Positions 101 to 62,749 of a stretch of 64,000 nt of DNA are shown piece after piece (within the stretch, counting starts at the first letter, position 1; each line of letters begins with the position of its first letter). The translations under genes were made by a program, and so were the position numbers. The notes below the pieces were generated by a model. That model saw nothing but the letters and a program-made list of their open reading frames with translations, did no database searches and was not told the DNA's origin. The DNA comes from a virus: positions 4,354 to 68,353 of IMG/VR virus record IMGVR_UViG_3300028430_000572; one strand, written 5' to 3'.

Positions 101-3100
101 TTATCGTCCTTCGATCGTGTTCGTAAGCCCGTCGATGTTTGCTCGCTTGAGTCGCTGGTCGATGTTCTCAACGCGACTGGCGACTTCGCTGAGTTTGTCG
201 GCAACTTTCGTGAATGTCGATTGTACCGTCTCGGCCAAATTCGCGTTGGCGTTTGCAAGACGATCGGAAGCGGACGACAGCGACGAGGCCGCCGTATCGA
301 TCGCCACGGCTGGCGACGATCGCCCGGGTTGCGTTCCTGCGCCCGACTCCGGCAAGTCCAGCGGCTTCGTGCTAATAAGTCCCCCGGACGATCCACGGAT
401 GATCCGCGATCCGGCGGGAGATCGAGTGTTGGCAATCGCAATCTGTTCCTCGATCGTGCGAGCACGCTGGCCGATCCTGTCCGCAGCGCCAGTGTTACCG
501 AGTCGCCGCTGGCGTTCTTCGGCTGCACGCAACGATCCCGCTTCGCCGACGCGAGCATTCGCCCGCGTTTCGCGTTCTTGCTTCTGTCGCGCCTCTCGCT
601 CTGCGGCGACACGGCGCTGCCGCTCGGCGTTGTACTCTTCGGCGATGATTCGCTCGCGGGAGTTGAGTTCTCCGATTTCTTCGTCGATACGGATTCGTTC
701 TTCTTGCGAACGCGCGCGACGGCGAGCCTGCACAAGCAAGCGACGTTCGGCGGTCAAGAGTTCTTGCGTCGTCTGTCCGAGTTGATCGAATGCTTGATTA
801 CCGGCAGCACCCTGAAACGCAGCACGCGCCGGTTGCCTTGCCGTTGCTGCGGATCGAACACCGAGGATGTCAGACAACGCAACGCGAGTGGCGGATACGC
901 CAGCAAGCGGATCGCGAGTTACCGCGATTGCGTCGCGGACGTTTTCGCGGGCCGTCGTTGCGATGTCGCGGACTTCGCGTGCTTGGATCTGGTCGAGCCT
1001 GACCGATCGCTCTTTAGCGTTGTTGATTTGATTGAGCGTGTCGAGAATATCGCGGCGCAGTCGCCTTTCAAGTTCGAGATTGCCTTGAGCAGCAGCGCGA
1101 GCGGCTTCTCCGGCGAGACGATCGACTTCGGCGATTCGCTCGCGGTCTTGCTTGGCTTCTTCGTTGCGACGCTTTTCGGCTTTGCCCGCTTCCGATGCCT
1201 CGAACTCGGCGCGTTGCACGCCTTCGATTTCGCTACGAAATCGGTCGTTCGCTGCTGCGATTGCGGCATTGATTTGCTCTTCGCTTCGCTTGCCTCGCTG
1301 TTCTTCGATTTGAGCGAGTCGCTCGATCCTTGATTGTTCGATTTCGGCTCGCTGCGCTGCGGAACTCGATCCTTCGCCACCGGCTCGCAATGCGGCGATT
1401 CTGTCGGATGCGATTGACGCGGCGAAGCGTCGGTCTTCTTCGCGACGCTTGCGGTTCTCTTCGTCGATTTGCTTTTTGCGTTCTTCGGACGCTTCTGCGT
1501 CGGCCTTGAGTTTTGCGTCCTTCGCGTCTTCGATCGCTTCGATCTCTGCGGCGTAGTTGGCTTGGATGGTTGCGAGTTTGGCTGCTCGAATTTCACGGTC
1601 TTTCTCCTTGTTTGCGTCGGCGATTTCTTGAATGAGCCGAGCCTCGGCCTCAAGTCTCGCTGCGGCTGTTTCGTCATCATACCGACGCTCGTTCGCCGCA
1701 CGCTCAAGCAATCCCTGAATTTGGATTTGCGTGCGGGCAGCCTGCTCCCGTTCGGCGCGGTTGCGTTCGATATCGGCAACGCCCCGATTGAAGTCGTCGA
1801 TAGCAGACTGACGGCGACTGGACGCGGCAGATGAGTTGGGGTCGAGTTGCCCTTCGGAGATTTGCTGTGCGATCTTCGCGAGTTCTTCTCGTCGCTTGAT
1901 CGTAAGTTCAAGCAACGCCGCTTCGTCTTCGTTGCCTTTGCGGCGAGCGTCGCGTATCTTGCGTTCGAGTTCCTCAAAGCCTTCGACGCGAGCACGATTG
2001 AATGCGTCGATTGAATTCAGTTCCGCTTCGCGGGCAGCGCCAGTGAAATCAGAATCACCGAGCCGCCCTTCTGACGATTGCTGAAACAAGATTCGGGGAT
2101 TAAATGCAATCGCCGCTCCGGTTGTTACCGCATTGAAAATGTCGCCAAGGCTTGTGCTGGTGCCGGTAACGGCACGAATAGCCGAGTTCGCTCCGCGAGT
2201 GATTGCGTCAAACGCTTTGGCAGCAGGATCAACAATTGCATTGAGCGAACCCGCGAGGCCCTCAAGTGCCGAGTTGAGCCCCGTTCCGCGACGCGAGCCG
2301 GCAACACCGAGCGACTCGCCAAGCGATCGGAACGATGCCGCAAGCCGATTTGTTTCTGTGAACGACTGACCATAAACTGCGCGAGCCTCTGCGAGTTGTC
2401 GCGTGAGCGTTCTAACGCCGATCGCGGCAACGCCGAGCACCGCTCCGCCAATGCCGAACAATCGAAAGAATGCGGACAGTCGGGTGCCTTGCGCCGTCGC
2501 CGATTGTCCAAGAACGCCGATGGCTTCGCTCTGCTCTCGCACGGCGCGAGTTGTTTGCTGGATCGTCGATGCGTTGCCAGACGATCCGGCAGCGTCACGC
2601 AATGATCGTCCGCCAAGCGCGCCTTGCTCGGCTTGCTGGATAAGAAACAAGTCGCGGCGACTCAGCGACGATCCGGCGACTCCGAGTTGCGAAGAAATAG
2701 CGCCGCCGCGAGTCGAACCAAAGTCGTCGATTGACAAAGCATCTTCGCGACTCAGAAATCGACCAGTGCGACGATTGACGGGGCGACCGCCTCTGTCCTC
2801 GATGTCCTCAAAGAGAACATTAAATCGCCCGGTGCTGGGATTTCGCGGACGCGATGCGTTTGCAATGCGAGAAGCGGCGGCCTCAGCCTTGCCAGCGTCT
2901 TGCTGCAACTGTCTGACCGCGTTCGAGATTTGATTCGTCGATGCGGTAGCGTTCTGCGCGACAGACTGGAACGCCTGTGATGCTGCACGAAGCGAGTTCG
3001 CAACAGAAGCAAATGCGGACTTAGCCGTCGTATCGACGCTCGAAACATCGCGCGTCACCCTGTCCGTTGTTTCACGGACGGTCTTTCGCAATCCTTCGCT

Positions 3101-3163
3101 GCTGACGACCGCCTGCCGCGTGTCGGCGGTAAACCTGACATTGATTGATCCGATTTGCGACAC
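101..3163 (-). CDS. Tail tape measure protein
   Basis: 1020 aa, Ala/Arg/Glu-rich helical protein with a TMP-type N-terminus (MSQIGSINVRFTADT); lies directly downstream of the tail tube and chaperone genes. Confidence 0.8.
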   Translation of the reverse strand: MSQIGSINVRFTADTRQAVVSSEGLRKTVRETTDRVTRDVSSVDTTAKSAFASVANSLRAASQAFQSVAQNATASTNQISNAVRQLQQDAGKAEAAASRIANASRPRNPSTGRFNVLFEDIEDRGGRPVNRRTGRFLSREDALSIDDFGSTRGGAISSQLGVAGSSLSRRDLFLIQQAEQGALGGRSLRDAAGSSGNASTIQQTTRAVREQSEAIGVLGQSATAQGTRLSAFFRLFGIGGAVLGVAAIGVRTLTRQLAEARAVYGQSFTETNRLAASFRSLGESLGVAGSRRGTGLNSALEGLAGSLNAIVDPAAKAFDAITRGANSAIRAVTGTSTSLGDIFNAVTTGAAIAFNPRILFQQSSEGRLGDSDFTGAAREAELNSIDAFNRARVEGFEELERKIRDARRKGNEDEAALLELTIKRREELAKIAQQISEGQLDPNSSAASSRRQSAIDDFNRGVADIERNRAEREQAARTQIQIQGLLERAANERRYDDETAAARLEAEARLIQEIADANKEKDREIRAAKLATIQANYAAEIEAIEDAKDAKLKADAEASEERKKQIDEENRKRREEDRRFAASIASDRIAALRAGGEGSSSAAQRAEIEQSRIERLAQIEEQRGKRSEEQINAAIAAANDRFRSEIEGVQRAEFEASEAGKAEKRRNEEAKQDRERIAEVDRLAGEAARAAAQGNLELERRLRRDILDTLNQINNAKERSVRLDQIQAREVRDIATTARENVRDAIAVTRDPLAGVSATRVALSDILGVRSAATARQPARAAFQGAAGNQAFDQLGQTTQELLTAERRLLVQARRRARSQEERIRIDEEIGELNSRERIIAEEYNAERQRRVAAEREARQKQERETRANARVGEAGSLRAAEERQRRLGNTGAADRIGQRARTIEEQIAIANTRSPAGSRIIRGSSGGLISTKPLDLPESGAGTQPGRSSPAVAIDTAASSLSSASDRLANANANLAETVQSTFTKVADKLSEVASRVENIDQRLKRANIDGLTNTIEGR

Positions 3164-3213
3164 GATGATGCTCCCGATTTCGTGGCGAAATCGGCGGGGT
3201 CTTGTATCTTACG

Positions 3214-3465
3214 TCACAACGTCGCATGACCCAAGAATTTGTCTTGATCTTCGAGCGACATCGATCGGAGATCGACTGCGCCCGGGGAGCGAGCCATTGA
3301 TTCGAGTGCTGCCGACGCTTCGGATTCTGTGAGTTGTTCTGCCCCGAACGATCGCGCTGACTTGCGGGATGGCCTGTGAAAGTCGGCGTGCTGATCCGCC
3401 ATGATGATGAGCCATCTCATCGGCAGTTCCGCGAGTTCGCTCGGCGTGCGAGCAAGACGCAGCAC
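3214..3465 (-). CDS. Tail assembly chaperone, C-terminal (GT-like) part, probably made by -1 frameshift
   Basis: Lies between the chaperone gene and the TMP gene; its open frame extends up to about 3542 in the -1 frame of the upstream gene. Confidence 0.55.
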   Translation of the reverse strand: MLRLARTPSELAELPMRWLIIMADQHADFHRPSRKSARSFGAEQLTESEASAALESMARSPGAVDLRSMSLEDQDKFLGHATL

Positions 3466-4006: not shown

Positions 4007-4045
4007 GAGTGGGGACATTCTTGCCGAGTCGATTTCGACACGAAA

Positions 4046-4588
4046 TCAATCGACAAGCGTGATTCGTGCGTACTGCTGGCCGACCGTCTTGCTTTCGTCG
4101 GCCTGAGCCGTGAAGTTGACGGGGTAGGTAATGAACTCTTCTTCGGCAAAGTTCAGCGTCACTTCGCCGCCGACGATCGACTTGAAGACTTCGATTTGGA
4201 TGATCTTGCCGTCGGATCGCGTGTGCTCAAAGAGTACGTTGTACTCGGTGATAACGCGACCGCCGCCGAACGTGATGCGGTTGTTCGTGCCGGGAGTGGC
4301 GTTGCTGAGCGTGCTCGGGATCAGCCTGTTGAGTGTCGCGATGTTAACTTCCGCCGCCGTTACGTTCATGGAAAACGTATCGCGGAAAACAAGTTGCTTG
4401 ATGAGCACGCCGCCCGACTCGAAATTGCGGAGTTCGCGGTTGTACGAAATGCCGCAACCCTTGATGTATCCGATGTCGGCGAACGCAGCGGGCGGGCTGC
4501 CCAGCGGGAGTGCTCGAATGCCGAGGATACCGAGGCCGAGAAGAATCGCGCTCGGAGTCTTGACTGACGTAATCGTGTTGACTGCCAT
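4046..4588 (-). CDS. Major tail (tube) protein
   Basis: 180 aa from ATG 4588; beta-rich with DIGYIKG and ITYPVNFTA motifs typical of siphovirus tube proteins; synteny. Confidence 0.75.
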   Translation of the reverse strand: MAVNTITSVKTPSAILLGLGILGIRALPLGSPPAAFADIGYIKGCGISYNRELRNFESGGVLIKQLVFRDTFSMNVTAAEVNIATLNRLIPSTLSNATPGTNNRITFGGGRVITEYNVLFEHTRSDGKIIQIEVFKSIVGGEVTLNFAEEEFITYPVNFTAQADESKTVGQQYARITLVD

Positions 4589-5988: not shown

Positions 5989-6585
5989 TTACCTCACGCC
6001 GGTAGCGCCGCGACGCTCTCGGATTGCTTGCAGTTTCATCGAAACAACGTTAGCCGCGTTCAAGTCGAGATCATCACGATCGCCGTACTTGCGGACATCT
6101 TGGGCGATCATCGTCAACCAGATGTTGAGAACTTCGATTGTGTTCGACGCGGACGGCGACATCCTCGCGATGTATCGACGTTGCCCGCCGACAATAACGG
6201 GCTCGGCCTCGGGCTTGTCGGGATCGCCGGAAGTGCGGGGCAAAACGGGCTCACCCTCGATAAATCGCCAGCCGTCGAGATAGTTCTGTGCGAATCCGTC
6301 AACTCCGACTCCCGGGCCGACGTTGTAACTGATCGCAATCGGCGCAACGCGAGTGCCGCACGGGCTGAGCATTCGTACGAAAGGCTGGCCGTTGGAAATA
6401 GAGTCGAACGGTTCAACCTTGAACTCGCTTTGATTTCGTGGCGAAATCGTTTGATCGTTCGCGGTCGGTTCGGCGATCGCTTCTCGCCTCGGCTTGTTCG
6501 CCGGGCGAGGAATCTTGGGCGGCGACGCGATCCTGCTCGGGGCGGTCGGCAATTTGAAACGCTTGTCATTCTGCGATGCGGTCAT
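5989..6585 (-). CDS. Hypothetical protein
   Basis: 198-aa ORF with AGGAG RBS, packed tightly in the operon. Confidence 0.6.
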   Translation of the reverse strand: MTASQNDKRFKLPTAPSRIASPPKIPRPANKPRREAIAEPTANDQTISPRNQSEFKVEPFDSISNGQPFVRMLSPCGTRVAPIAISYNVGPGVGVDGFAQNYLDGWRFIEGEPVLPRTSGDPDKPEAEPVIVGGQRRYIARMSPSASNTIEVLNIWLTMIAQDVRKYGDRDDLDLNAANVVSMKLQAIRERRGATGVR

Positions 6586-6587: not shown

Positions 6588-7424
6588 TTACTTTCTCCTT
6601 GTGCGGGTCTTTGTGATCGATCGCAACGGCATCTCGTTCAAGAGATCATAGGGGTCGCCCTTGCGAATGTCGGGCACTTTGGAATCAATCGACAAGTTCA
6701 ACATATCGATCCCGAGTTCGCGCGCCTGCTTGTAAGCGTGAGAATACCCCGCGAGCATCATTTGGCCTTGCGGGTAGTTGCGGTGCTTCTCGTCTTGATA
6801 CCGCACGCCCCATGCGTGCGTCCGACCGCCGATAGTCGTCAGGTCGTGCCCGAGCAACGCAATCGAATCTACGCCAGCCCACATCGCCATTTGCGCGCCG
6901 AAGCATCCCGACGACTCGCCGTGGAAGCCGATGCCGGGCGTATATGGGGGATTGGCGTCTGCTGTCGCGTGCATCGCAACGGCAGCGGGCATGTAGTCGA
7001 TATCTTCATGCTCAGGATCAAAGGCAAGGCAAAGCACGGCATTCTTTGAGCGAACGTAGCCTTTGATTTCGTCACGAAATTGCTGCCAAAAAGGTTCATC
7101 GAGTACGACGTGGTAATGCACGTTGCGAACCAACTTGATCGAGTCGCACTTCCATGCTGCGTTGCAGGTGATGATAAGCGGGTCGTTTCGCCTGACCCAT
7201 ACCGAAACAAAGTCCGGGCATAGATCAGACGCAGACGGGCCATTTGCAACGCAAAGCGCGCTGCCGCCTCGATTCATCGCAAGCAACGTCGATAAGTGCT
7301 CGCTTCGACGATCGGGGAACGGATCAACTCGCCATCCTTCGGACTTGAGTCGATCAAGTGAAGCAATCGGGCAAGTTACCCTGCGATTGTCTGGCGAGAG
7401 AAGCCGTATGCCGGGATCGTTCAT
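6588..7424 (-). CDS. DUF115/Maf-like (sialyltransferase-like) glycosyltransferase-fold protein
   Basis: Motif pattern CVANGPS ... IITCN ... SSGCFGAQMAMWAGVDSIALLGHD ... NLS. Confidence 0.6.
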   Translation of the reverse strand: MNDPGIRLLSPDNRRVTCPIASLDRLKSEGWRVDPFPDRRSEHLSTLLAMNRGGSALCVANGPSASDLCPDFVSVWVRRNDPLIITCNAAWKCDSIKLVRNVHYHVVLDEPFWQQFRDEIKGYVRSKNAVLCLAFDPEHEDIDYMPAAVAMHATADANPPYTPGIGFHGESSGCFGAQMAMWAGVDSIALLGHDLTTIGGRTHAWGVRYQDEKHRNYPQGQMMLAGYSHAYKQARELGIDMLNLSIDSKVPDIRKGDPYDLLNEMPLRSITKTRTRRK

Positions 7425-9358: not shown

Positions 9359-9407
9359 GAGATAGTGTAGGCACTATTTAGATGTCAAATCAATTTCGCC
9401 ACGAAAT
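9359..9407 (-). promoter_or_regulatory. Putative sigma70-type promoter of the scaffold/capsid operon abutting a palindrome
   Basis: Minus strand reads CGAAATTGATTTGACA (perfect TTGACA at 9388-9383), then AT-rich sequence with TACACT/TATCTC candidates and an ATAGTG-TAGG-CACTAT inverted repeat. Confidence 0.45.
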
Positions 9408-11463: not shown

Positions 11464-11523
11464 AGTTATCCTTTCGATTTCGTGGCGAAATTGGTTTGAC
11501 GATCATTCGATTTCGTGGCGAAA

Positions 11524-14931: not shown

Positions 14932-14994
14932 GGGACAACTCCCAATTTCGTGGCGAAATCGAACGACGAGTGATTCGACTGTTTGTGATTGTGA

Positions 14995-17172: not shown

Positions 17173-17945
17173 GTGACAAGTCTAGGCAGCGGCGATTTCG
17201 TGTCGAAATTGAGCAACACATCTTGTAGCCTGCGTTTCGACACCTCGAAATATCGATCGTCGAGTTCGATGCCGATAAACCTGCGATTGGTCTTGATAGC
17301 GACCTCGCCCGTCGTGCCGGAGCCCATGAAGCAATCGAGCACGGTGCCTCGATTAAACGGTTCACATCTGTCGATGATCCATCGCATGAAATCGATAGGC
17401 TTCGCGCACGGGTGAGTGTGCTTCGGAGCAGATGGACTCATTGTTCTAAATATCAATGTATCGCTTCTGGCTCCGAGTCCGTTCGCGAGATATGGGTCAG
17501 GGCCATATACAACCACCGGATGAGTGTTCTGCCATCCCCACGAACACCGACTGCCCGCTGCTGGCGATGAGACGCTAAGTACCCAAGTCGGCATCGGATA
17601 AAGCCACTCGGAAAGACGACCGGGAGTGAAAACAACGATCGGAGCAATTCTGCGGGCTTGCGGTAGCCATAGTCGAGCGAGAGCGGCAACATTCTCGCGC
17701 GTGTCATCGAACGATCTGTAATCAAGCCCTACGCCGTAGGGAGGATCGGTGCAGACAAGATCGACGCATCCATCTGGCATTGCCGACATTACCTCTTCGC
17801 ACTTGCCGCGATAGATCGTGACCCGCCCGCAGTCGCTCTGCCATTTGTCTTGCGTTGAATAAACGACCGGGCCGACATTCTTCCACCAGAGCGAAGAAAT
17901 GCGTTCGGGCTTACGAGAGATTTTTTTGGTGTTCCGTTTAGCCAT
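17169..17945 (-). CDS. DNA methyltransferase (beta class, N6A/N4C)
   Basis: Motif IV TDPPY, HPCAKP and motif I DCFMGSGTTG. Confidence 0.9.
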   Translation of the reverse strand: MAKRNTKKISRKPERISSLWWKNVGPVVYSTQDKWQSDCGRVTIYRGKCEEVMSAMPDGCVDLVCTDPPYGVGLDYRSFDDTRENVAALARLWLPQARRIAPIVVFTPGRLSEWLYPMPTWVLSVSSPAAGSRCSWGWQNTHPVVVYGPDPYLANGLGARSDTLIFRTMSPSAPKHTHPCAKPIDFMRWIIDRCEPFNRGTVLDCFMGSGTTGEVAIKTNRRFIGIELDDRYFEVSKRRLQDVLLNFDTKSPLPRLVT

Positions 17946-17967
17946 TTGATTTCGCCACGAAATTGAA

Positions 17968-19925: not shown

Positions 19926-19940
19926 GAAATCGCTTTCCTG

Positions 19941-43769: not shown

Positions 43770-43818
43770 AAAGCGCCGGAATCGCTTTCGCAATCCCGGA
43801 GCCGATTTCGTCACGAAA

Positions 43819-46423: not shown

Positions 46424-46480
46424 GCCACGATATATCGGGCTCGCGTGCTTATCGTGCGTCGGTCGATTTCGTGGCGAAAT
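46424..46480 (-). promoter_or_regulatory. Class A promoter (near-identical to 62693..62749)
   Basis: 53 bp identical to the copy near 62.7 kb; 43 bp spacing. Confidence 0.7.
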
Positions 46481-48587: not shown

Positions 48588-48671
48588 AAGATACCCGACA
48601 TTCACGCATCGGGCGACAAATCGGGGCTCGATTTCGTGGCGAAATTGCCAAATCCCCCATTTGCGGGGGTC
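48588..48671 (-). promoter_or_regulatory. Class B promoter repeat
   Basis: GACCCCCGCAAATGGGGGATTTGGC + palindrome + TATCTT 43 bp from the palindrome; shared with 51306..51389. Confidence 0.65.
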
Positions 48672-49611: not shown

Positions 49612-49713
49612 GGCCGATCTCCTGTGGCCCCTGTCCGCCGGGGCTCGCGTCTGCCCAATATACGAGCAATCCGCCGCGAGCGCGTCAGCACGCGCGGCGA
49701 TTTCGTGGCGAAA

Positions 49714-51305: not shown

Positions 51306-51389
51306 AATGTACCCGCCATTCGCGACCCGGGCGACAAATCGGGGCTCGATTTCGTGGCGAAATCGCCAAATCCCCCATTTGCGGGGGTC
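51306..51389 (-). promoter_or_regulatory. Class B promoter repeat
   Basis: About 60 bp nearly identical to the 48.6-kb copy; TACATT 43 bp from the palindrome. Confidence 0.65.
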
Positions 51390-52004: not shown

Positions 52005-52118
52005 GTGCGATGTCCTGTCTCGCCCCGATCCGCCCGGGGCTCGCGTGCGGGGCGTTGTGCCCCGAAGCGAGCGGGACGGCGCTGGCCGTCCCGCTCGTGA
52101 TTTCGTCGCGAAATCGGC

Positions 52119-54020: not shown

Positions 54021-54104
54021 AATATACACCATATCGACGAGCCGGGGTACAAATCGCGGTCAATTTCGCCGCGAAATCGTCAATATCCCTCAATCGCGGG
54101 GGTC
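54021..54104 (-). promoter_or_regulatory. Class B promoter (diverged copy)
   Basis: GACCCCCGCGATTGAGGGATATTGAC + palindrome 54063-54077 + TATATT 42 bp away. Confidence 0.6.
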
Positions 54105-54164: not shown

Positions 54165-55811
54165 TCACGCCCCATGCCCCAATTCTCGGGCGATCGCGTC
54201 CGCCGCCCGCTCCCGCGCGTTGCCGGAGATCGTCGAGCCCGTGGCCTCATCGATCGCCCCGAGGGCCTCGGCGGGATGCTCATCGGGATCTGAGCCCTCG
54301 GGCATATCGACGATCATCGATACGATCCCGCGAGCCCTGAGCGTCGCGGCGGACTCGCTCGCTCCGAGTCGGCCCGCCTCGTCGCCGTCGGCGAGCACTA
54401 CCGCTCGATCAATCTTGAGCCGACGCAGCCACTCGGCCTGCCGAGCCGTGAGTCGCGATGAGCCGACCGCGAGCACGGGCGGGCAAGCGCGACGAGCGGC
54501 GAGCGCGAGTCGCTTATCGAATCGCGCGGCGGGATACGGCGAGCGGAGTTTGTGCTGATCGCGCAGCACGCGGCGGAACATCGCCATCTCCACCGCCGCC
54601 GCATCGATCGGCCCCTCCACGAGCACGGCCACGCCATGAGCGGCGGCGCGGATCATCGTCTGCGGGCTTCGCCACTGGAACGATGAGCCCTTGGAGTAGA
54701 TCCATGAGTTCGGCGTAGACCACCATTTCGGCGTGCGGTCGCCGTCGAGATCGCGAGCACCGAAGCCGATTGGAGTGCGGCCCGAGATCGATAGGATCGG
54801 GACGACGAGCCGCCCCGCGAGTTTGTCGGCAAGCGCCCGGGTCATCGCGAGCGGCGGGGTCGAGCCGTTAATTTGTGCGCGGGCGCGCTCGGCCTGCTTG
54901 AAGAGTTGCTCGGCATCGCCGAACACTTGAAACGGCATCATCGGCGTATTGAGATCGTCGGACGGGATGCGGCGATCGATGATGTTCGGCGTGCCAAACT
55001 CGCGGAAGCCGACGTTGAATATCCGCTTGCGTGCCATATATCGCGAGAGCATGATGTCGGCGGTCTGCCGGTCATCGTCGAACCCGGACCTGCTCGGGCT
55101 GCCGAGTATCGCGTTGTCGAGAAGCCAAGATAGATATCGCTCTTGCAGAGATGCAATTGCGTTGTGATGCTCAAGTCCGACTGTTGATCCGTTGCCGGTC
55201 GCGTGCGACCATTTGAGGTTTGTATCGATCGGAAACGATTTCGTCACGAAATCGAATCCGGTCTTTGCGGACACGCATTCGAGCCTGTGAAACATCCCGG
55301 CCATTTTCGCTGGCTCGGGCCGCATCTGGCACTCTTCGCGATCGCGGACAATTTTGTCCCACGCGCGATCGATCGTTTGCATGATCGGCGGATCGTAACT
55401 GGCCTGCTTTCGATCTTCGATGATCGTACGAAATCGGTCGATAGCATCATCGATTACGTCGCCGTCGCTGTCGTCGGTGATGCCGAGTCGAGCGGCGAGG
55501 TTCGCGATGGCCTTGCCTTTCGCGAGCCCTTCGGCGTGCGCGATGTAGTCGATTACATCGCCGCCAACTGCGCACGAGAAGCAGTGCCAACGATCGTCGT
55601 AAAGGTGCAGCGTCGCCCTGCTCTTGCTTGTCTTCGAGCAGGCGGGGCACGGGTGGTTCGCTTCTTTGCGAGAGTAATCGAAGCCGTAAGCGATCGCGGC
55701 CTTGACGATATCGAGTCGCTGCTTGATAAGCCCGGCAACGCGAGAAATGTTGCGTATCGGCACTTCGCAGGTTATCGAGTCGTCATCGAATGAAGCCGTG
55801 TTGATCGACAT
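54165..55811 (-). CDS. dnaG: DNA primase
   Basis: Zinc finger CPAC ... WHCFSC-GGDVI, IGFGAR, TOPRIM VEGPID and DGDEAG. Confidence 0.9.
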   Translation of the reverse strand: MSINTASFDDDSITCEVPIRNISRVAGLIKQRLDIVKAAIAYGFDYSRKEANHPCPACSKTSKSRATLHLYDDRWHCFSCAVGGDVIDYIAHAEGLAKGKAIANLAARLGITDDSDGDVIDDAIDRFRTIIEDRKQASYDPPIMQTIDRAWDKIVRDREECQMRPEPAKMAGMFHRLECVSAKTGFDFVTKSFPIDTNLKWSHATGNGSTVGLEHHNAIASLQERYLSWLLDNAILGSPSRSGFDDDRQTADIMLSRYMARKRIFNVGFREFGTPNIIDRRIPSDDLNTPMMPFQVFGDAEQLFKQAERARAQINGSTPPLAMTRALADKLAGRLVVPILSISGRTPIGFGARDLDGDRTPKWWSTPNSWIYSKGSSFQWRSPQTMIRAAAHGVAVLVEGPIDAAAVEMAMFRRVLRDQHKLRSPYPAARFDKRLALAARRACPPVLAVGSSRLTARQAEWLRRLKIDRAVVLADGDEAGRLGASESAATLRARGIVSMIVDMPEGSDPDEHPAEALGAIDEATGSTISGNARERAADAIARELGHGA

Positions 55812-57873: not shown

Positions 57874-57930
57874 CGGCCAATATACCCGAACTGACGGTGA
57901 TTTGACGGACGATCAATTTCGTGGCGAAAT
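57874..57930 (-). promoter_or_regulatory. Class A promoter
   Basis: Palindrome 57916-57930; TATATT-N5-ATG, 43 bp spacing. Confidence 0.65.
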
Positions 57931-60900
57931 CGACGCGATGAGATCAGCCGAGATTCGATCTACCGAAACCGGCTTCGGTTCATTGGCAACAAGAACCTGC
58001 CCGTCCCGCTCAATCGAGCACGAGAAGATAATCACTGATCCGGGCTTGGCGACTGCGGCAAACGGCTTCCACGAGCCAGAGAAGCATGTCGCTCGCATGG
58101 GCGATCCAATGTGCGGTTGCAGCGTCAAGAATCCCATCGTCCTGCCGCGCTTGTCTTTGTGATTGCGTACAGACGAAACAAGAAACGCGCGACGGCCCGG
58201 CCCGCGATCGTTCGGCGAGCGAAGGCGGCCAGCAGCAACAAGGGCACGCACCTTGTCGATGCGTGAGTTGATTTTCCAAGGCGACACCCAATGAGAGAAG
58301 CCGAGCGCCTTGGCCTCGAAGATCGAAAACAGTTCCGGGTCGGCTACGGTGGTCTTGCAATCGTGATTCGGATTGTTGACAATCGAAGACATCATCGACG
58401 CAACATGGGTCGGCTTCGCCTTCGCTTCTTTGAGCATTGCGATAGCGTCGATGCTCAAAGCCCACGCCTGTTCGCCGCTCGGTATCGACGCATACGACTT
58501 GAGTAGCAGCGACCGCAAAGCGCCCGAGCACGCAAGCGAATCGAGCGACTTCGAGTTGCACAACTTTTTGTGAGACAACGCCCATCGAATGAACTCGCAG
58601 AACGGATCGGGCGTTGCGATAGCGGACTTCGCGGCATCGGAAATTGCTTTCGCCGACGTTTCGCTTACGCCGAGCAGCACGCAAAGCGGGGCACGAATGC
58701 CGCTGCGATCGATCGTCCATCGATCAGAAGATGCGCCGACCATCGGCGGGCGAATCCTGCACCCGAGCGACTCGGCGGCCTTCATCGTCAGTGCAAGTTT
58801 GCGGTCAGCGTCGGCACGCTTGGCGGATTGGTTCGGCGTGCGATTGAGCAGCGACAAGAAGAAATCGTCCCTTCGCGTCGCGCGAAGCATCGCCGTAATC
58901 CAAGACAACACGCCGTAAGAAGCCGCGTGAGCGGCGTTGAACGAATACCCGGCGAAGTCATACACGACACCGAAGATTCGCTCGGCGGCATCTTTGCGAA
59001 GCGGCGGCGACGCTTTCGTTGTCGAGTAAGCAATGAACCCGTCTTTAGCAGCAGCGATTTTCGCAGCGTCCTTCTTGGAGATTGCCTTGATGATGCCGTA
59101 TGCGTCACGCAGCGCCATGCCGCCGAGCGTCGATAGAAGCAGCATCACTTGCTCTTGATACACAAGAATGCCGTAGGTTCGCTTCGTGATTTCGTCGTAC
59201 TTCGGATGGATCGCTTCGACGTGCTCTTGCCCGTTCGCGCGTCGAATAAACGTCTCAACGAATTGCAGCGATCCCGGGCGATACAGCGCAATCGCAGCGA
59301 TCAAATCATCGACCGACTTCGGGCGAAGCGCCTTGACAATCGACGCGAGCCGCTGGTCTGACTCGGCAAGTTGGTGAATGCCGTGGCCGTCGCCCGACGA
59401 AAGTTCCTTGAGCACAACGGGGTTTTCGTAATCAATACCCCAGCAGTCGATCCCGTTCGGCAACAATGCGCCGACAACGGCGACAGTTTCGAGTCCGAGC
59501 AAATCGACTTTCATAAGCCCGGTCGGCGAGATGTGCTGTGCGGCTTGCCCTTCGATCCATGCGGTTACAACTTCGGCAGACCGACCGCCGATGCCACGAT
59601 CGACCGGGATGTGATTTTGCAAAGGATCGGGAGAAGCAACGAACCCGGCAGCGTGAGTCGCCTTGCCGCGAACGCGACCAACGAACGAAAGTGCCGCACG
59701 AATGGAATCGTCGTTGGAATCAATTTCGCCACGAAATCGCTCGGGGGCAACCGATCGGATAGCCTGCATTGCATCTTCGATAACATCGTCGCGATTCGCG
59801 ATCGTCATCGATTCGACTTTGGCGACGACTTCATCCGGCAGATCATCGGAGATGCGCGACAGTTCGTGTGCAAGTTTCGGATTGGCAGATCGAGCGAACA
59901 AAACATCCCGCAACGCAGACTTAATGCCGAACGTAGATAGCGCCCCGATTCGAGCAACGCAATCGCCGTTTGGCCCGCCGTACTTCTGACAGAACCACGC
60001 CGCGATTTCGTCGCGCCGGTCGGCGGCAATGTCAAGATCGAAGTCGGGTGCTCCCGGGCGGGACGGATCAACAAATCGCTCGAAAAGCAGTCCGAATCGA
60101 ATAGGGTCGATCGGCGTAATGCCAACGACAGCAGCGACAAGCGAAGCGCATCCAGATCCGCGAGTCCACACAAGAACGCCGCGACGACGGCACTCGCGCA
60201 CAATGTCGAGCGTCACAAGGAAGAACGCAGACATCTTGCACTTGTTGATAATCGACAACTCGTGCTCAAGCCTCGCGGTGTAAGTGTCGCGATCAAGTTC
60301 GGGATACTGAGCGAGTTTGCGATCGAGCCCAAGACGTGCAACACGAGCAAGCGTCGCATCGGTGTCAGCGACAACGCGACCGTCGGGCATTGCAAATCGC
60401 GGCGGCTTGAGTTCGCCAGACGGATAAATGTCGGCGCTGCAAGTCGAAGCGATTTCGCTTGATCGCGCAATGGCGGCGACGAGTTCGCTTCGAGACAGCG
60501 GGCAACCAATCGAGGTCGCATGGTCAACCGCCTCTTTGGCGTTCATGTAATACAACGAACGAACCGACAACTTGAACGCCTGCGGATCATCGACCGGAGT
60601 TCTTCGAGCGACAGCGATCATTTCATCTTGACGCTTGCAGTCGCCGGAGCAAGCGTAATGCACATCACACGCCCACACGATCGGCACACCAAGTTCTTTG
60701 GCGATCGGGATAAGATGCGAGTTTGCCTTGGCTTGCAAGTCGAGGTCCGACAAATGCAACTCGCAGAAGAATCGGCCCGGCATAGCATCGCGGAACGTCG
60801 CCATGAGTTCGCGGAGTTCTTTCGTTCGTCCGGCGATAGCGAGCCGACCAAACTTCGACGCGATGCAGGCCGTCGTAACAATCAGTCCGTCGCTATTGTT

Positions 60901-61329: not shown

Positions 61330-61347
61330 GTTGCCTTTCCAATTTCG

Positions 61348-62436
61348 CTACGAAATCGACACGCCGCAATGCTCCAGCATCGCAATCGTTGTGTCGCCAA
61401 AGTCCAGTTGCTCGCGAAGTTCTTCAATCGTTCCGGGACGAGCCTTGCGATGAATGCACGCCGCGCAAATAGCGGTATCGATCATACCCCAAGTCTTTGT
61501 CGGCCACTGATTGTCGCGGATGCGATACGCGGCAGCGTAATCAGACGGCGACTTGTAAAGCGTGCTGAGCAGCAGACTCAATCGTGCGTCTTGCTCGTGA
61601 GCGACGATCTTCCGCTCCATCGCGCGAGACTTGCCGGATGCAACCGCGTGCTTCGCTTCGGCGATGATCTTGTCGATAGTTTGATACATCGCGACTTGCG
61701 TTGCGGCGGTCTTGTCGCCGACACCGGGAACGCCCGGGATGTTATCGCCGCTCGCAGACTCGCCGCAGAGCGCTTTGTAATGCGCATAGTTCGACGGCGG
61801 AAACCCCATCGACTGTTGAAACTTGGGCAGATCAACAAGTTCCTGTTTGACCGGCCTCCAAACATGGACGCGCGGCGACAGCAGTTGAAGAACGTCTTTG
61901 TCATCCGTTACAACGACGGCCCGCTCGATGCCGTTGAGCTGCATGAGCAAGCCAGACGATGCGCCGTGTGCGATAAATCCTTCGATGTCGTCGGCTTCGC
62001 AAAGGTCTGGCCTGATCGATGGCAGCCCGAGCAATCCAGTCATTGCTTCGGCGCGGCGGATTGCGTTTTCGCGTCGCTCCGACTCCGCTTGATCCTCAGG
62101 GGTTTTGTCGCGAAGATGCCTGACTTTGTACCCCGCGTGCATCGCGCGCTTCGCGTCCAGCCGCCCGTCCCACGCGAGCACGATGCGGGTCGTGTCAGCA
62201 TCGCGACAGATGCCGGAGCACATCGTAATGATGCCGTGGATCGCGGACGTTGACTCGCCAGTTGAGTTCGTCAGGTCGCGGGTGTACCAAGCGCGGTACG
62301 CCATATGCCGTGCGTCAATCACAATCAGCGTCGAGTTCTTCGCCCACTTGCGTGCGCGACGCTCGATCGCGAGTTGCGACTCTTGAATAGGGGCTGTGAC
62401 ATCGGGCGAGTCGAACGGTACGACTTTCATTGGCAT
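61348..62436 (-). CDS. 5'-3' exonuclease / flap endonuclease (PolA N-terminal family)
   Basis: VIDA, GYK, EADD, DKDVLQL and DNIPGVPGVGDKTA motifs. Confidence 0.92.
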   Translation of the reverse strand: MPMKVVPFDSPDVTAPIQESQLAIERRARKWAKNSTLIVIDARHMAYRAWYTRDLTNSTGESTSAIHGIITMCSGICRDADTTRIVLAWDGRLDAKRAMHAGYKVRHLRDKTPEDQAESERRENAIRRAEAMTGLLGLPSIRPDLCEADDIEGFIAHGASSGLLMQLNGIERAVVVTDDKDVLQLLSPRVHVWRPVKQELVDLPKFQQSMGFPPSNYAHYKALCGESASGDNIPGVPGVGDKTAATQVAMYQTIDKIIAEAKHAVASGKSRAMERKIVAHEQDARLSLLLSTLYKSPSDYAAAYRIRDNQWPTKTWGMIDTAICAACIHRKARPGTIEELREQLDFGDTTIAMLEHCGVSIS

Positions 62437-62449
62437 ACGAGTTCTCGAT

Positions 62450-62692
62450 TTACTTTGCCTTTGACTTGCGATCGTCGGATCGCTCGATGGACACACTTTC
62501 GCGCGGCGCTTGAATCGTCATGCGTCCGGGCCGCTTGTGGCCGATCAAGCAAACAATCGGCTTGCCGCTCTTGATCGCCGCTTGCATTGATTCGACTGAT
62601 ATCACAAGCGCGACGACCGACTTCTTGTTGACCGTCAGCGTAAGGCCGGACAAAGCATCCGAAGTTTCAGGAATGAAGATTTGATCGCTCAT
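62450..62692 (-). CDS. Hypothetical protein
   Basis: Leaderless ATG 62692. Confidence 0.55.
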   Translation of the reverse strand: MSDQIFIPETSDALSGLTLTVNKKSVVALVISVESMQAAIKSGKPIVCLIGHKRPGRMTIQAPRESVSIERSDDRKSKAK

Positions 62693-62749
62693 GCCCCGAT
62701 ATATCGGGCTCGCGTGCTTATCGTGCGTCGGTCGATTTCGTGGCGAAAT
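62693..62749 (-). promoter_or_regulatory. Class A promoter
   Basis: Palindrome 62735-62749; 43 bp spacing. Confidence 0.7.

What the first reader, a model, noticed from the sequence alone, without database searches (positions are those of the whole stretch)
1227..62749. Genome-wide lattice of at least 42 ATTTCG-NNN-CGAAAT palindromes
Seen: 42 copies with both 6-bp arms perfect, read by eye (spacer TGG 20, TCA 7, CCA 4, CTA 3, others 8). A simple base-composition estimate at about 60% GC gives roughly 0.001 expected copies in 64 kb. Mean spacing is about 1.5 kb and the largest gap is about 3.4 kb. Copies also occur inside long conserved genes (tape measure 1227, primase 55238, DnaE 59723, SbcC-N 41337), forcing peptides such as FRGEI, DFVTKS or ISPRN. 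Inference: the even coverage and in-gene copies exceed what ordinary operators require. They suggest a protein that coats or organises the whole phage chromosome (segregation, compaction, shielding from host defence, or stoperator-like silencing as in mycobacteriophage L5, whose sites are however asymmetric).
Basis: partly seen in the sequence, partly recalled or inferred. Interest (0 to 1): 0.92.

Follow-up and report, generated by a model that had tools for sequence, protein, structure and literature searches.

The report
Regular palindrome lattice with phage ParB
This phage carries one exact 15-base palindrome about every 1.5 kb along its whole genome, most likely as docking sites for its own ParB-like DNA-binding protein, and two distantly related phage lineages have the same arrangement with their own versions of the palindrome.

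Summary
ATTTCG-NNN-CGAAAT occurs 42 times in the window (0.02 expected) and 47 times in the complete 68,353-bp phage record. No copy has one mismatch.

The spacing is far more even than chance. The CV of gaps is 0.49, against 0.98 for random placement, and 0 of 20,000 simulations reached it. The 10 in-gene copies sit in the largest gaps (P=0.0001).

Most copies lie at gene junctions. Thirteen lie 28-36 nt upstream of a GATATAT-type -10 box.

The phage encodes an orphan ParB/Noc/KorB-family protein. Distant relatives of the phage that carry the same ParB subfamily have their own regular lattices: 31 copies of ATTTC-N5-GAAAT, and 18 and 11 copies of ATTGC-N5-GCAAT.

Best reading, at about 0.6 confidence: these are a genome-wide array of binding sites for a dimeric phage ParB-like protein, working like KorB or Noc. 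Binding itself is inferred, not shown.

Earlier first-stage notes on this same window had already proposed the ParB reader and the promoter classes.

The closest published case is the 17-bp repeat of Cluster O mycobacteriophages, whose function is unknown.

The parts
1227..1241 (.). palindrome copy, in-gene (1020-aa ORF 101-3163, tape-measure position); fills the gap between window -399 and 3177
3177..3191 (.). palindrome copy, 13 nt upstream of start codon 3163, directly before a GGGAG ribosome-binding site
4032..4046 (.). palindrome copy, fused to the upstream TGA stop and 13 nt upstream of start 4018
6433..6447 (.). palindrome copy, in-gene (198-aa ORF); fills the 4032-9393 gap
7066..7080 (.). 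palindrome copy, in-gene (278-aa ORF); fills the 4032-9393 gap
9393..9407 (.). palindrome copy, fused to the upstream TGA stop
11477..11491 (.). palindrome copy, 13 nt upstream of start 11463; forms a tandem pair with 11510 (33-bp gap)
11510..11524 (.). palindrome copy, fused to the TGA stop of the 1135-aa gene
14945..14959 (.). palindrome copy, 13 nt upstream of start 14931, before GGGAG
17195..17209 (.). palindrome copy, 22 nt upstream of start 17172, inside the last 26 nt of a DNA methylase gene
17949..17963 (.). palindrome copy squeezed between the terminase stop (17968) and the next start (17945)
19916..19930 (.). palindrome copy at a gene junction, 10 nt after a stop
20466..20480 (.). 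palindrome copy whose spacer TGA is the stop codon of methylase gene 20472-21299; 21 nt upstream of start 20444
22449..22463 (.). palindrome copy, intergenic, 3 nt after a stop
23817..23831 (.). palindrome copy, 18 nt upstream of start 23798
24240..24254 (.). palindrome copy, in-gene, 87 nt before the stop of a 276-aa ORF
25362..25376 (.). palindrome copy, 19 nt upstream of start 25342
26553..26567 (.). palindrome copy that encodes the last codons (ISPRN) before a TGA stop; a -10 box lies 29 nt downstream, followed by a leaderless ATG
28688..28702 (.). palindrome copy with a -10 box 29 nt downstream (class A promoter)
30464..30478 (.). palindrome copy with a -10 box 29 nt downstream and leaderless GTG 30421
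31809..31823 (.). palindrome copy, intergenic, 16 nt after a stop
32337..32351 (.). palindrome copy with a -10 box 28 nt downstream (leadered gene)
33413..33427 (.). palindrome copy, in-gene (308-aa ORF); fills the 32337-35827 gap
35827..35841 (.). palindrome copy fused to a stop (ISPRN*); -10 box 29 nt downstream, leaderless ATG 35784
37391..37405 (.). palindrome copy whose spacer TGA is the stop of the Mom-family gene; -10 box 30 nt downstream, leaderless ATG 37348
38963..38977 (.). palindrome copy, 16 nt upstream of the start of the second ParB_N-domain gene (38227-38946)
40863..40877 (.). palindrome copy at a gene junction, 7 nt after the SbcC-N stop
41337..41351 (.). palindrome copy, in-gene (SbcC/Rad50-like N part); fills the 40863-43095 gap
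43095..43109 (.). palindrome copy with a -10 box 30 nt downstream and leaderless ATG 43053 (RecA-like gene)
43805..43819 (.). palindrome copy fused to the upstream TGA stop
45214..45228 (.). palindrome copy, in-gene (157-aa ORF); fills the 43805-46466 gap
46466..46480 (.). palindrome copy with a -10 box 29 nt downstream and leaderless ATG near 46423
48631..48645 (.). palindrome copy with a GTATCTT box 36 nt downstream (class B). It heads the transcription unit that contains the ParB-like gene and is preceded by a terminator-like hairpin.
49700..49714 (.). palindrome copy fused to a stop; GTATATTG box 36 nt downstream (class B)
51349..51363 (.). palindrome copy with a GTACATT box 36 nt downstream (class B)
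52100..52114 (.). palindrome copy, intergenic, 4 nt after the MoxR-like stop
54063..54077 (.). palindrome copy with a GTATATTC box 35 nt downstream (class B)
55238..55252 (.). palindrome copy, in-gene (primase); fills the 54063-57916 gap
57916..57930 (.). palindrome copy encoding the last five codons of DnaE (ISPRN*); -10 box 30 nt downstream, leaderless ATG 57873
59723..59737 (.). palindrome copy, in-gene (DnaE, peptide FRGEI). It lies in a stretch that aligns poorly with Thermus aquaticus DnaE, and it fills the 57916-61342 gap.
61342..61356 (.). palindrome copy whose spacer TAG is the stop of the 5'-3' exonuclease gene; 12 nt upstream of the DnaE start 61329
62735..62749 (.). palindrome copy fused to the TGA stop of the SNF2-type helicase gene; -10 box 29 nt downstream, leaderless ATG 62692
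46983..48119 (-). Candidate reader: an orphan ParB/Noc/KorB-family protein (P0001, 378 aa). It has a basic N-terminus, an acidic disordered stretch, a ParB N-domain with box II reading GDGRLAA, a ParB-type HTH and a distinctive C-terminal domain predicted to form a dimer.
38227..38946 (-). Second ParB_N-domain protein (239 aa). It has the N-domain only, of the kind often fused to phage DNA methyltransferases. Whether it belongs to the system is unknown.

Best explanation
The palindromes are double-stranded DNA binding sites for a dimeric, phage-encoded protein. The most likely candidate is the orphan ParB/Noc/KorB-family protein encoded at window 46983-48119. Each half of the dimer would read one ATTTCG half-site through its ParB-type helix-turn-helix, with the C-terminal domains holding the two halves together. 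Selection keeps a site roughly every 1.5 kb, and never more than 3.4 kb apart. Sites are placed in the short gaps between genes, often sharing bases with stop codons. Where a gene is too long, the site is placed inside it. The whole chromosome therefore carries a regular array of bound dimers. At about 16-17 sites the dimer would sit centred about 50 or 56 bp upstream of the inferred transcription start of a -10-only promoter. Occupancy there probably also controls transcription, as KorB does on plasmid RK2.

What is shown: the motif, its exactness, its regular spacing, its gene-junction placement, its phasing with -10 boxes, the family membership of the protein, and the recurrence of protein plus lattice in related phages with a changed site sequence.

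What is inferred: that this protein binds these sites, that transcription starts where I place it, and what the array is for.
For: (1) The arms are sequence-invariant rather than merely complementary: 47 perfect copies and 0 one-mismatch copies. The flanking positions are symmetric consensus bases that do not co-vary to keep pairing (at +-1: G:C 24, G:T 12, A:C 9, A:T 0). This is what half-site recognition by a dimer predicts.

(2) Of 23 G(A/T)TATA(T/C) boxes on the coding strand, 13 lie 28-36 nt downstream of a copy. The intervening sequences have diverged, so the spacing itself is kept. These copies lie upstream of the inferred transcription start.

(3) Spacing is regular. CV is 0.49 against 0.98 for uniform placement and 0.93 for random choice of junctions, and 0 of 20,000 simulations reached it in each case. 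The largest gap is 3435 bp against about 6400 (P about 0.001).

(4) The 10 in-gene copies fall in 8 of the 10 largest gaps left by the other 37. Random placement in gene interiors gave P(CV)=0.0001 and P(max gap)=0.012.

(5) P0001 belongs to the ParB family. phmmer against PDB hits Thermus Spo0J 1vz0 at E 3.6e-8 over residues 82-229. PHROG ParB-like families score E 6.6e-14. An AlphaFold model (mean pLDDT 79.5) matches ParB, Noc and KorB by Foldseek at E about 1e-8, with the best superposition on KorB 8qa9_B (TM by target 0.68, rmsd 4.0). Apart from a weak sub-threshold LysR-type HTH match in ORF 51396-52004 (E 0.0064), it was the only protein with a DNA-binding HTH match among the roughly 75 ORFs I scanned with Pfam.

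(6) The half-site ATTTC is identical to five bases of the Noc-binding site half (TATTTCCC), and TTTC is shared with parS (TGTTTCAC). Both consensus sites were read in PMC7383237.

(7) The C-terminal domain (residues 290-378) is predicted to form a homodimer. The score is 0.79 against a best control of 0.00. That mark was reached by 20 of 30 proteins solved as pairs and 1 of 23 solved as single chains. The runs agree in 100% of contacts and the partner pLDDT is 88.

(8) P0001 belongs to a distinct subfamily of about 28 representatives. Four IMG/VR records encode a relative. Three of them represent two lineages, because G003 and G004 are near-identical over the ParB region. All three carry their own exclusive lattice. 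G001 has 31 copies of ATTTC-N5-GAAAT (CV 0.57, P 0.0003). G004 has 18 copies of ATTGC-N5-GCAAT (CV 0.37, P<5e-5). G003 has 11 copies (CV 0.32, P 0.00025). Reversed-pattern controls gave 0 and no genome carries another genome's variant. Sites are depleted from ORF interiors in all of them. The recognition helix differs between the three lineages.

(9) The fourth record, G002, shares no other gene with this phage. Its relative is only 27% identical over part of the length, and it has no lattice. L141 encodes only a small ParB_N protein and has none either.
Against: No binding experiment exists and none can be computed here. The three lattice-bearing lineages belong to one phage clade: 33 of 76 and 21 of 76 of my ORFs have tblastn hits in G001 and G004.

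Box II of the CTP-binding motif is degenerate (GDGRLAA here; GNTRLAA as subfamily consensus). The sliding-clamp mechanism of ParB and KorB cannot simply be assumed.

The central trinucleotide is oriented with transcription. On the coding strand CCA occurs 22 times and TGG 6 times here. In G001 CCA occurs 23 times and TGG 2 times among 31 copies. A perfectly symmetric dimer does not explain this.

The fixed promoter phasing is clear only in this phage and in three G001 copies. It is not seen in G004, so transcription control may be secondary.

Pfam's own thresholds were not reached for ParB_N (17.4 against 26.3 bits) or HTH_ParB (16.8 against 22.6 bits).
Confidence: 0.6

Rival explanations
1. 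The element acts in RNA. Every copy is transcribed because all genes share one strand. It would fold into a 6-9 bp hairpin with a 3-nt loop that a phage or host protein or RNase recognises, either to cut the long transcripts into units or to stabilise and insulate neighbouring cistrons.
For: Many copies sit exactly between a stop codon and the next ribosome-binding site. The 21-nt unit folds at -6.3 to -10.4 kcal/mol. The loop is biased to CCA on the coding strand in two lineages, and that strand asymmetry is easier to explain in RNA than in duplex DNA.
Against: There are no compensatory changes. The arms never vary, and the flanks show A:C mismatches (9) but no A:T pairs. No U-tract follows the hairpin. 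In 70-nt contexts the fold is no better than shuffles (z -1.8 to +0.1). Copies inside long genes, placed so as to fill gaps, would cut or burden coding RNA. The fixed 28-30 nt distance to -10 boxes puts 13 or more copies upstream of the inferred transcription start. Rfam found nothing except tRNAs. The RNA contigs that were laid on the region were too sparse to show transcript ends.
Confidence: 0.12
2. The sites are protein-binding DNA sites, but the reader is not the ParB-like protein. It is another phage protein of unknown family shared by the clade, or a host factor.
For: The clade shares 20-30 other genes, many without a known family (Pfam blanks). A 202-aa protein (51396-52004) has a weak LysR-type HTH match (E 0.0064). 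The case for ParB rests on family analogy and on co-occurrence within one clade.
Against: The ATTTC half-site resembles known ParB-family sites. The ParB-like protein is the only confident HTH protein found. Its recognition helix changes where the site changes. A host factor would not explain three different site sequences, each exclusive to its own genome. The 21-mer is absent from 185,579 species genomes except for this phage itself and one chance hit.
Confidence: 0.18
3. The lattice serves a DNA transaction rather than regulation or organisation. Examples are lagging-strand priming or helicase loading signals, nicking sites, or recombination or packaging signals spaced at about the length of an Okazaki fragment.
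For: The spacing is regular at 1.5-3.6 kb. The phage carries its own DnaE, DnaB-like helicase, DnaG-like primase, RecA, SbcC-like proteins and 5'-3' exonuclease. The motif is all-or-none exact, as is typical of enzyme recognition sites.
Against: Nothing predicts the strong preference for gene junctions (33 of 47 centres within 45 nt of a gene end, against 15% of the genome, P 5e-17) or the phasing with -10 boxes. I know of no precedent for such signals in double-stranded DNA phages (recalled, not searched).
Confidence: 0.07
4. The copies are remnants of a small selfish repeat or of recombination, with no function of their own.
For: Eight of 12 class A promoters share a GATAAG-type box, and some are near-identical over about 60 bp. 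Some copies therefore spread by duplication of whole promoter cassettes.
Against: The unit is only 15-21 bp long and has no flanking repeats. No decayed copies exist. The regular spacing, the gap-filling and the conservation of the arrangement at 25-50% protein identity between genomes all require selection.
Confidence: 0.02

Closest known systems
17-bp repeat of Cluster O mycobacteriophages (Corndog and relatives), 5'-TGTTCGGNNNCCGAACA (PMC4351075; abstract, passages and section 8 read)
   Same: Both have invariant inverted arms around a variable 3-bp spacer and more than 30 copies spread over a roughly 70-kb phage genome. About a third to a half of the copies are intergenic and about a third lie inside genes. 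The motif is absent from the host. Both genomes carry a ParB-like domain protein and glycosyltransferases among the head genes. The authors likewise predict a dimeric DNA-binding protein and leave the function open. My own count in Corndog was 34 perfect copies and 3 one-mismatch copies.
   Different: The sequence differs. Corndog's copies are not regularly spaced (CV 1.07, largest gap 9.2 kb, P 0.77) and are concentrated in one arm. The authors find few copies near promoters. Corndog gp90 shows no BLAST similarity to P0001. Corndog genes run in both directions.
KorB and its OB operators on plasmid RK2 (PMC11790492 passages; PMC13768133 passages)
   Same: A ParB-family protein binds a short palindrome with an odd centre (OB core TTTAGCGGCTAAA) at many dispersed sites: twelve over about 60 kb. 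The sites lie from a few bp to more than a kb from the promoters they control, and the protein acts as a global regulator. The P0001 model superposes best on KorB.
   Different: KorB has an intact CTP switch and slides. It works with the partners KorA and TrbA, and with a ParA-type partner (IncC; recalled from memory, not from a call). It has 12 sites rather than 47. Regular spacing has not been reported as far as I read. It is carried by a plasmid, not a phage.
Noc and its NBS sites in Bacillus (PMC7383237 passages; PMC8429893 abstract only)
   Same: An orphan ParB paralogue without a ParA partner binds many copies of a palindrome scattered over a chromosome. The NBS half-site TATTTCCC shares ATTTC with this motif.
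   Different: The NBS is 14-16 bp with an even centre, so this site has one extra central base pair. Noc binds CTP and the membrane. It is a Firmicute chromosomal system for division-site control. P0001 lacks two of the three box II arginines.
Stoperators of mycobacteriophage L5 and Cluster A (as described in the discussion of PMC4351075)
   Same: Many copies of a short site are spread through a phage genome, including within and between genes, and are bound by one phage protein.
   Different: Stoperators are asymmetric, are oriented with transcription, and serve prophage silencing by the repressor. Here the site is a palindrome, and no repressor or integrase was found in the Pfam scans.

Membership tests
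ParB/Noc/KorB family (protein P0001) | N-terminal ParB/sulfiredoxin-like domain | tested here: met
   phmmer against PDB hits Spo0J 1vz0 at E 3.6e-8 over residues 82-229. PHROG ParB-like families score E 6.6e-14. Foldseek matches ParB, Noc and KorB at E about 1e-8 with probability 1.00. Pfam ParB_N scores only 17.4 bits against a cut-off of 26.3.
ParB/Noc/KorB family (protein P0001) | Box II GERRxRA arginine patch of the CTP switch | tested here: not met
   P0001 reads GDGRLAA. The subfamily consensus is G-N-T-R-L-A-A, with only G128, R131 and A134 invariant. Box III (N172, R175) is kept. Binding of some nucleotide is not excluded.
ParB/Noc/KorB family (protein P0001) | ParB-type helix-turn-helix DNA-binding domain after the N-domain | tested here: met
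   The PDB alignments run through the HTH. The model has helices at 180-264. Foldseek matches include DNA-bound ParB, Noc and KorB. Pfam HTH_ParB scores 16.8 bits against a cut-off of 22.6.
ParB/Noc/KorB family (protein P0001) | C-terminal dimerisation | tested here: inconclusive
   This rests on prediction only. For residues 290-378 in two copies, the score was 0.79 against a best control of 0.00. The mark was reached by 20 of 30 solved pairs and 1 of 23 single chains. Runs agree in 100% of contacts and pLDDT is 88. No solved homologue of this domain was found, because the PDB hits are C-terminally truncated.
ParB/Noc/KorB family (protein P0001) | Binds a short palindrome (parS, NBS or OB type) | not testable with these tools
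   The site is a 15-bp palindrome whose half-site shares ATTTC with the NBS. Site and protein recur together and change together in related phages. Binding itself was not tested.
ParABS partition system | Adjacent ParA ATPase and a ParA-stimulating N-terminal motif | tested here: not met
   No ParA-type ATPase appeared among the ORFs scanned with Pfam. The neighbours are MoxR-type AAA and VWA proteins. The N-terminus has no LG(K/R)GL-type motif.
Cluster O mycobacteriophage 17-bp repeat | Invariant inverted arms, 3-bp variable spacer, more than 30 copies genome-wide | tested here: met
   compared.
Cluster O mycobacteriophage 17-bp repeat | The sequence TGTTCGG-N3-CCGAACA and kinship with Cluster O phages | tested here: not met
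   The arms differ. gp90 against P0001 gave no significant BLAST hit. The listed best DnaE matches in the phage collection were all below 31% identity, and all 1,337 were below 60%.
L5-type stoperators | Asymmetric site oriented with transcription, bound by the prophage repressor | tested here: not met
   The site is palindromic and only its 3-bp centre is oriented. No repressor or integrase family was found (Pfam calls listed above).
Intrinsic terminator or structured RNA element | Stem kept by compensatory changes; U-tract for terminators; match to a known RNA family | tested here: not met
   No covariation, no U-tract and no Rfam match.

The most novel reading that the evidence does not exclude
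A clade of phages has turned ParB into a virus-encoded chromatin-like protein. This ParB has lost most of the arginine patch that lets ordinary ParB slide away from a single loading site. The phage compensates by writing a loading site into its genome every 1.5-3.6 kb, even inside essential genes, so that the whole chromosome is held in a regular protein array. The array would organise or protect the replicating genome, for example against host nucleases or silencing proteins, or for compaction and positioning. It would also set the transcription programme as a by-product. The same logic could explain the unexplained Cluster O repeats.
Probability: 0.3. Interest if true: 0.9.

Novelty: new variant of a known kind. 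Interest (0 to 1): 0.78.

Why it matters
Many-copy palindromes in phage genomes have been described, in the Cluster O mycobacteriophages, but have had neither a reader nor a function. Here the pattern comes with three things that make it testable. It has a statistically regular spacing with gap-filling copies, which points to a distance-limited action along DNA. It has a named candidate protein from a well-studied family. And it has natural specificity variants (ATTTCG, ATTTCA and ATTGCG) paired with variant recognition helices.

It would also give a natural example of a dense site lattice standing in for clamp sliding.

In my four literature searches on this point I found no paper linking a phage ParB-like protein to a genome-wide site lattice.

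Tried and rejected
Searches for the motif elsewhere. The 21-mer gave 0 hits in viral contigs and 2 in genome contigs. One of those two is this same phage at 99.98% identity, inside a MAG labelled Bacteroidota. The other is a chance copy in the loop of a larger hairpin. Metagenome contigs gave 1 unrelated hit.

Close relatives. P0001 alone found none in viral contigs. TerL found one 7-kb fragment (L005, 36% identity) with no palindrome. It is too short to count as a negative.

Two further ParB-subfamily alignments. A4 found nothing. A5 found only an unrelated phage with a small ParB_N protein and no lattice.

Sequencing runs. The phage DNA is present, essentially identical, in contigs of many runs. 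All the strong holders are flagged as possible sources, so I draw no habitat conclusion. The two RNA runs gave only scattered low-depth contigs with no usable ends. The 'joints' at palindrome positions have only 20-22 letters on the short side. I read them as assembly-graph branching at the repeat, not as rearrangements.

Host. The Atlas neighbours of P0001 are most often from Planctomycetota, and the MAG label is Bacteroidota. Neither is evidence of the host.

Ideas considered and dropped: RNase III sites (the stem is too short; recalled knowledge), N4-type hairpin promoters (too many copies and no virion RNA polymerase found; recalled), Chi-like sites (those are asymmetric; recalled), and a methyltransferase target (four methylases and a Mom-family gene are present, but nothing explains over-representation or spacing). 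I did not map the four ParB/Noc specificity residues onto P0001, because chain numbering in the PDB alignment could not be tied safely to the published residue numbers. Supplementary files of papers were closed. Fig. 8 and the tables of PMC4351075 were seen only as legends.

Full report
THE OBSERVATION

Dinucleotide-preserving shuffles give 0.02. The window is positions 4354-68353 of a 68,353-bp virus record with a 141-bp direct terminal repeat, rated complete. The whole record has 47 copies, and the reversed control pattern has none.

ANATOMY

A simple coding-potential gene call puts every gene on the minus strand, so I describe the motif on the coding strand. It is a 21-bp palindrome, T-Y-R-ATTTCG-Y-S-R-CGAAAT-Y-R-A. 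The twelve arm bases are all-or-none: 47 perfect copies, none with one mismatch, 3 with two (5 expected by chance) and 28 with three (46 expected). It is the only repeated palindrome of this kind in the genome.

The flanking positions are symmetric consensus bases but do not co-vary to preserve pairing. At +-1 the pairs are G:C 24, G:T 12, A:C 9 and A:T 0. At +-2 they are C:G 24, T:G 11, C:A 9 and T:A 2. The central trinucleotide on the coding strand is CCA 22, TGA 7, TGG 6, TAG 3, and others 9. The centre therefore has a preferred orientation relative to transcription.

PLACEMENT

Thirty-three of 47 copy centres lie within 45 nt of a called gene end, although only 15% of the genome does (P 5e-17). 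By an independent ORF-based count, only 12 of 47 lie deep inside ORFs that cover 81% of the genome (P 1e-16).

The copies are packed into very short intergenic gaps. In 15 the stop codon of the upstream gene lies in the 5' flank, in the 3' flank, or in the spacer itself. Examples of the last are the TGA of a methylase gene at 20466, the TGA of the Mom-family gene at 37391, and the TAG of the exonuclease gene at 61342. In 13 the next start codon follows within 25 nt, usually straight after a GGGAG or AGGAG site.

Thirteen of the 23 G(A/T)TATA(T/C) boxes on the coding strand lie 28-36 nt downstream of a copy. A looser pattern adds one, and two more class B copies have GTATCTT or GTACATT at +36. 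In nine of the thirteen an ATG or GTG follows the box after 4-5 nt. If the box is a -10 element, these genes are leaderless and the palindrome is centred near -50 (class A) or -56 (class B). No -35-like hexamer is seen at the usual place. One further copy lies 7 nt before a TATACT box in front of a tRNA-Met gene.

The transcription starts are inferred. The available RNA contigs were too sparse to test them. The first-stage notes on this window had already listed the promoter classes, the fusion to stop and start codons, and the ParB idea. I re-derived each from the sequence.

THE SPACING IS REGULAR

Treating the genome as a circle without the terminal repeat, the 47 gaps have a mean of 1451 bp, a CV of 0.49 and a maximum of 3435 bp. 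Uniform random placement gives a mean CV of 0.98 and a mean maximum of 6444 bp. Drawing the junction-associated copies at random from the 74 gene junctions gives 0.93 and 6340 bp. In both nulls, 0 of 20,000 simulations reached the observed CV, and the maximum gap had P about 0.0007-0.0009.

The ten clearly in-gene copies are not scattered. Nine of them fall in 8 of the 10 largest gaps left by the other 37 copies. The only top-six gap left unfilled is the 1135-aa gene, which is now the largest gap. Placing ten copies at random in gene interiors gives the observed CV in 0.01% of trials and the observed maximum gap in 1.2%. The DnaE copy encodes FRGEI in a stretch that aligns poorly with Thermus aquaticus DnaE.

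Selection therefore keeps a site within reach of every part of the chromosome, at some cost to coding sequence. This is the strongest argument that the element acts on DNA over a limited distance, and not only gene by gene.

THE CANDIDATE READER

Pfam scans of about 75 ORFs found:
- a replication and recombination set: DnaE, DnaB-like helicase, DnaG-like primase, RecA, a split SbcC/Rad50-like protein, 5'-3' exonuclease, SNF2 helicase;
- four DNA methylases, a Mom-family protein and ThyX;
- head and tail genes, and a MoxR-VWA pair.

They found no RNA polymerase, sigma factor, repressor, integrase or ParA.

The only confident sequence-specific DNA-binding domain is in P0001 (window 46983-48119, 378 aa). 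Pfam alone is below threshold (ParB_N 17.4 bits, HTH_ParB 16.8 bits). Other evidence is stronger:
- phmmer against PDB sequences gives Thermus Spo0J at E 3.6e-8 over residues 82-229, plus four other chromosomal ParBs.
- PHROGs gives ParB-like families at E 6.6e-14.
- An AlphaFold model built on 28 subfamily sequences (mean pLDDT 79.5; residues 80-378 mostly above 90) matches ParB, Noc and KorB structures at E about 1e-8. It superposes best on KorB in its DNA complex (8qa9_B, TM by target 0.68, rmsd 4.0) and on Noc (7nfu_A, 0.59, rmsd 5.0).

The protein has a basic N-terminus, about 60 acidic disordered residues, the ParB N-domain, the HTH region and an 80-residue C-terminal domain with no solved relative. 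That domain is predicted to form a symmetric dimer by strand pairing. The score was 0.79 against a best control of 0.00. The mark was reached by 20 of 30 proteins solved as pairs and 1 of 23 solved as single chains. Runs agree in 100% of contacts and pLDDT is 88. This supports dimerisation but does not show it.

Box II of the CTP site reads GDGRLAA instead of GERRxRA, so two of three arginines are missing. The gene lies in a transcription unit headed by the class B copy at 48631, so autoregulation is possible. A second protein (38227-38946) has only the ParB N-domain.

The site looks like a ParB-family site. The consensus parS is TGTTTCAC-GTGAAACA and the consensus Noc site is TATTTCCC-GGGAAATA (PMC7383237, methods passage). 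The present half-site ATTTCG shares ATTTC with the Noc site and TTTC with parS, and has one extra central base pair. KorB's operator also has an odd centre.

THE COMPARATIVE TEST

A HMMER search of 1.84 billion representatives found 1360 relatives at E<=0.001. Only about 28 (P0004-P0030, E 3e-50 to 1.6e-18, 28-38% identity) align over the full length, including the C-terminal domain. They share box II G-N-T-R-L-A-A, the basic N-terminus and the acidic stretch.

An alignment of ten of these found four IMG/VR records.

G001 (88.8 kb, rated complete, 64% GC) has 31 copies of ATTTC-N5-GAAAT, mostly ATTTCA-CCA-TGAAAT on the strand that carries most of the long ORFs and onto which the shared genes map. 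Neither the reversed pattern nor a one-mismatch variant occurs. The mean gap is 2.8 kb, CV is 0.57 (P 0.0003) and the largest gap is 5.4 kb against 11 kb expected (P 0.0002).

G004 (68.3 kb, rated complete, 47% GC) has 18 copies of ATTGC-N5-GCAAT, mostly ATTGCG-AGC-CGCAAT, with CV 0.37 (P<5e-5). G003 (41.5 kb) has 11 copies of the same pattern, with CV 0.32 (P 0.00025). Their ParB sequences are identical over the shared part, so I count them as one lineage.

Each genome has only its own variant. In all of them the copies avoid ORF interiors. They show the same habits: a TGA stop fused to the flank, start codons 6-35 nt downstream, and in G001 three copies 34 nt upstream of a GTATCATAT box.

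These phages are distant relatives of the window's phage. Thirty-three and 21 of my 76 ORFs have tblastn hits in G001 and G004, at 24-59% identity and in conserved order. The arrangement has therefore been kept while the DNA between sites has diverged beyond recognition.

The site changed together with the protein. The recognition helix reads S-T-A-Q-I-S-K in this phage, S-T-S-I-L-N-R in G001 and S-T-S-R-V-S-R in G003. The change from Q to R in the lineage whose half-site has G in place of T is suggestive but untested.

The fourth record, G002, has only a 27%-identical partial relative, shares no other gene and has no lattice. L141, with a small ParB_N-only protein, has none either.

The main caveat is that the lattice-bearing genomes form one clade. 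The link between ParB and lattice is therefore not independent of common descent.

WHAT IT MOST LIKELY IS

I commit to a genome-wide array of double-stranded DNA sites bound by a dimeric phage protein (about 0.85). The most likely reader is the ParB-like protein (about 0.65 given the first point). That gives about 0.6 for the combined statement.

The array has two readable consequences. The first is even coverage of the chromosome, which is conserved across the clade and is probably the primary function. The second is promoter-phased occupancy at about 16-17 sites in this phage, which is a KorB-like regulatory use. Because box II is degenerate, the sliding-clamp mechanism cannot be assumed. 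The dense lattice may be what replaces it. What the coverage is for (organisation, protection, positioning or silencing) remains open.

The oriented CCA centre, seen in two lineages, is not explained by this model. It may reflect descent by same-strand duplication. It is also the best argument for the RNA rival.

COMPARISON WITH WHAT IS KNOWN

The nearest published phenomenon is the Cluster O mycobacteriophage repeat. The authors report 34 invariant copies of a 7-N3-7 palindrome, predict a dimeric binding protein, note a ParB-like protein among three candidates, and consider transcription regulation unlikely (PMC4351075, section 8 and discussion passages). My count agrees (34 perfect copies plus 3 with one mismatch). 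But Corndog's copies are not regularly spaced (CV 1.07), and its gp90 shows no BLAST similarity to P0001.

Mechanistically the nearest systems are KorB with twelve OB sites on RK2 and Noc with its NBS sites.

A recent survey notes that orphan ParB-fold proteins are common on mobile elements and phages. In phages they are often fused to methyltransferases, and they bind various nucleotides (PMC12704722, passages). In the passages I read it does not describe site lattices.

Four literature searches turned up no paper that links a phage ParB-like protein to a genome-wide palindrome array. I therefore rate this a new variant of a known kind.

Noticed in passing
window 44000-56000: A 12-kb stretch has 64-65% GC, against 54-59% elsewhere. 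It holds the ParB-like gene, a MoxR-type AAA ATPase (52119-53474), a VWA protein (49714-51243) and the class B promoters with long structured leaders. Third-position GC of the ParB gene is 0.89. The region may have a different origin or expression class.
   Followed up: partly
window 17169-17945, 20472-21299, 33547-34656, 36473-37348, 37397-38152, 30678-31541: The phage has an unusually large DNA-modification set: four DNA methyltransferases, a Mom-family protein and ThyX. There is also a stand-alone ParB_N protein of the kind usually fused to phage methylases (38227-38946).
   Followed up: partly
coding-strand centre of the palindrome, all copies; also G001: The central trinucleotide is oriented with transcription: CCA 22 against TGG 6 here, and CCA 23 against TGG 2 among 31 copies in G001. 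In G001 the inner base next to the left arm is almost always A, while its partner varies (T, C or G). This is unexplained.
   Followed up: partly
window 26580-27760: In several public runs a second, diverged allele of this stretch co-exists with the reference sequence. There are 17 differences in a 150-nt piece and several replaced segments. It is a hypervariable spot in an otherwise invariant genome, and the adjacent palindrome at 26553 is unchanged.
   Followed up: no
L117 (genome contigs record): A 6.4-kb contig binned into a MAG labelled Bacteroidota is this phage at 99.98% identity and spans the junction of the record's two ends. This is a binning artefact or a host hint. It also shows the ends are joined in some molecules or assemblies.
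   Followed up: partly
P0001 residues 1-75 and the whole subfamily (alignment A1): Every subfamily member starts with a short lysine-rich peptide (MAKK...) followed by 40-150 residues of almost pure Asp/Glu, modelled as disordered. Possible roles are a partner-stimulating peptide and a DNA-mimicking or protein-recruiting tail.
   Followed up: no
window 21378 region (coding strand): A leaderless-type promoter box (GTATATTG followed by ATG) has no full palindrome at the usual distance. A single half-site (GATTTCG) abuts the box directly.
   Followed up: no
window 40885-41895 and 45495-46118: The SbcC/Rad50-like ATPase appears as two separate ORFs. The N-terminal half carries the zinc hook and the C-terminal SMC_N part lies 3.6 kb downstream, with RecA and other genes between them.
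   Followed up: no
window 28830-28976; genome 3862-3937 (outside the window): The phage has tRNA-Gln and tRNA-Trp genes and a tRNA-Met gene. The tRNA-Met gene starts 6 nt after a TATACT box that lies 7 nt after a palindrome copy.
   Followed up: partly
public runs: Near-identical copies of this phage (98-99% of sampled words) stand in contigs of 18 runs from about a dozen studies labelled freshwater or fungus metagenome. All are flagged as possible sources. Such uniformity across years could mean a very widespread clonal phage or a shared laboratory or reagent source.
   Followed up: no
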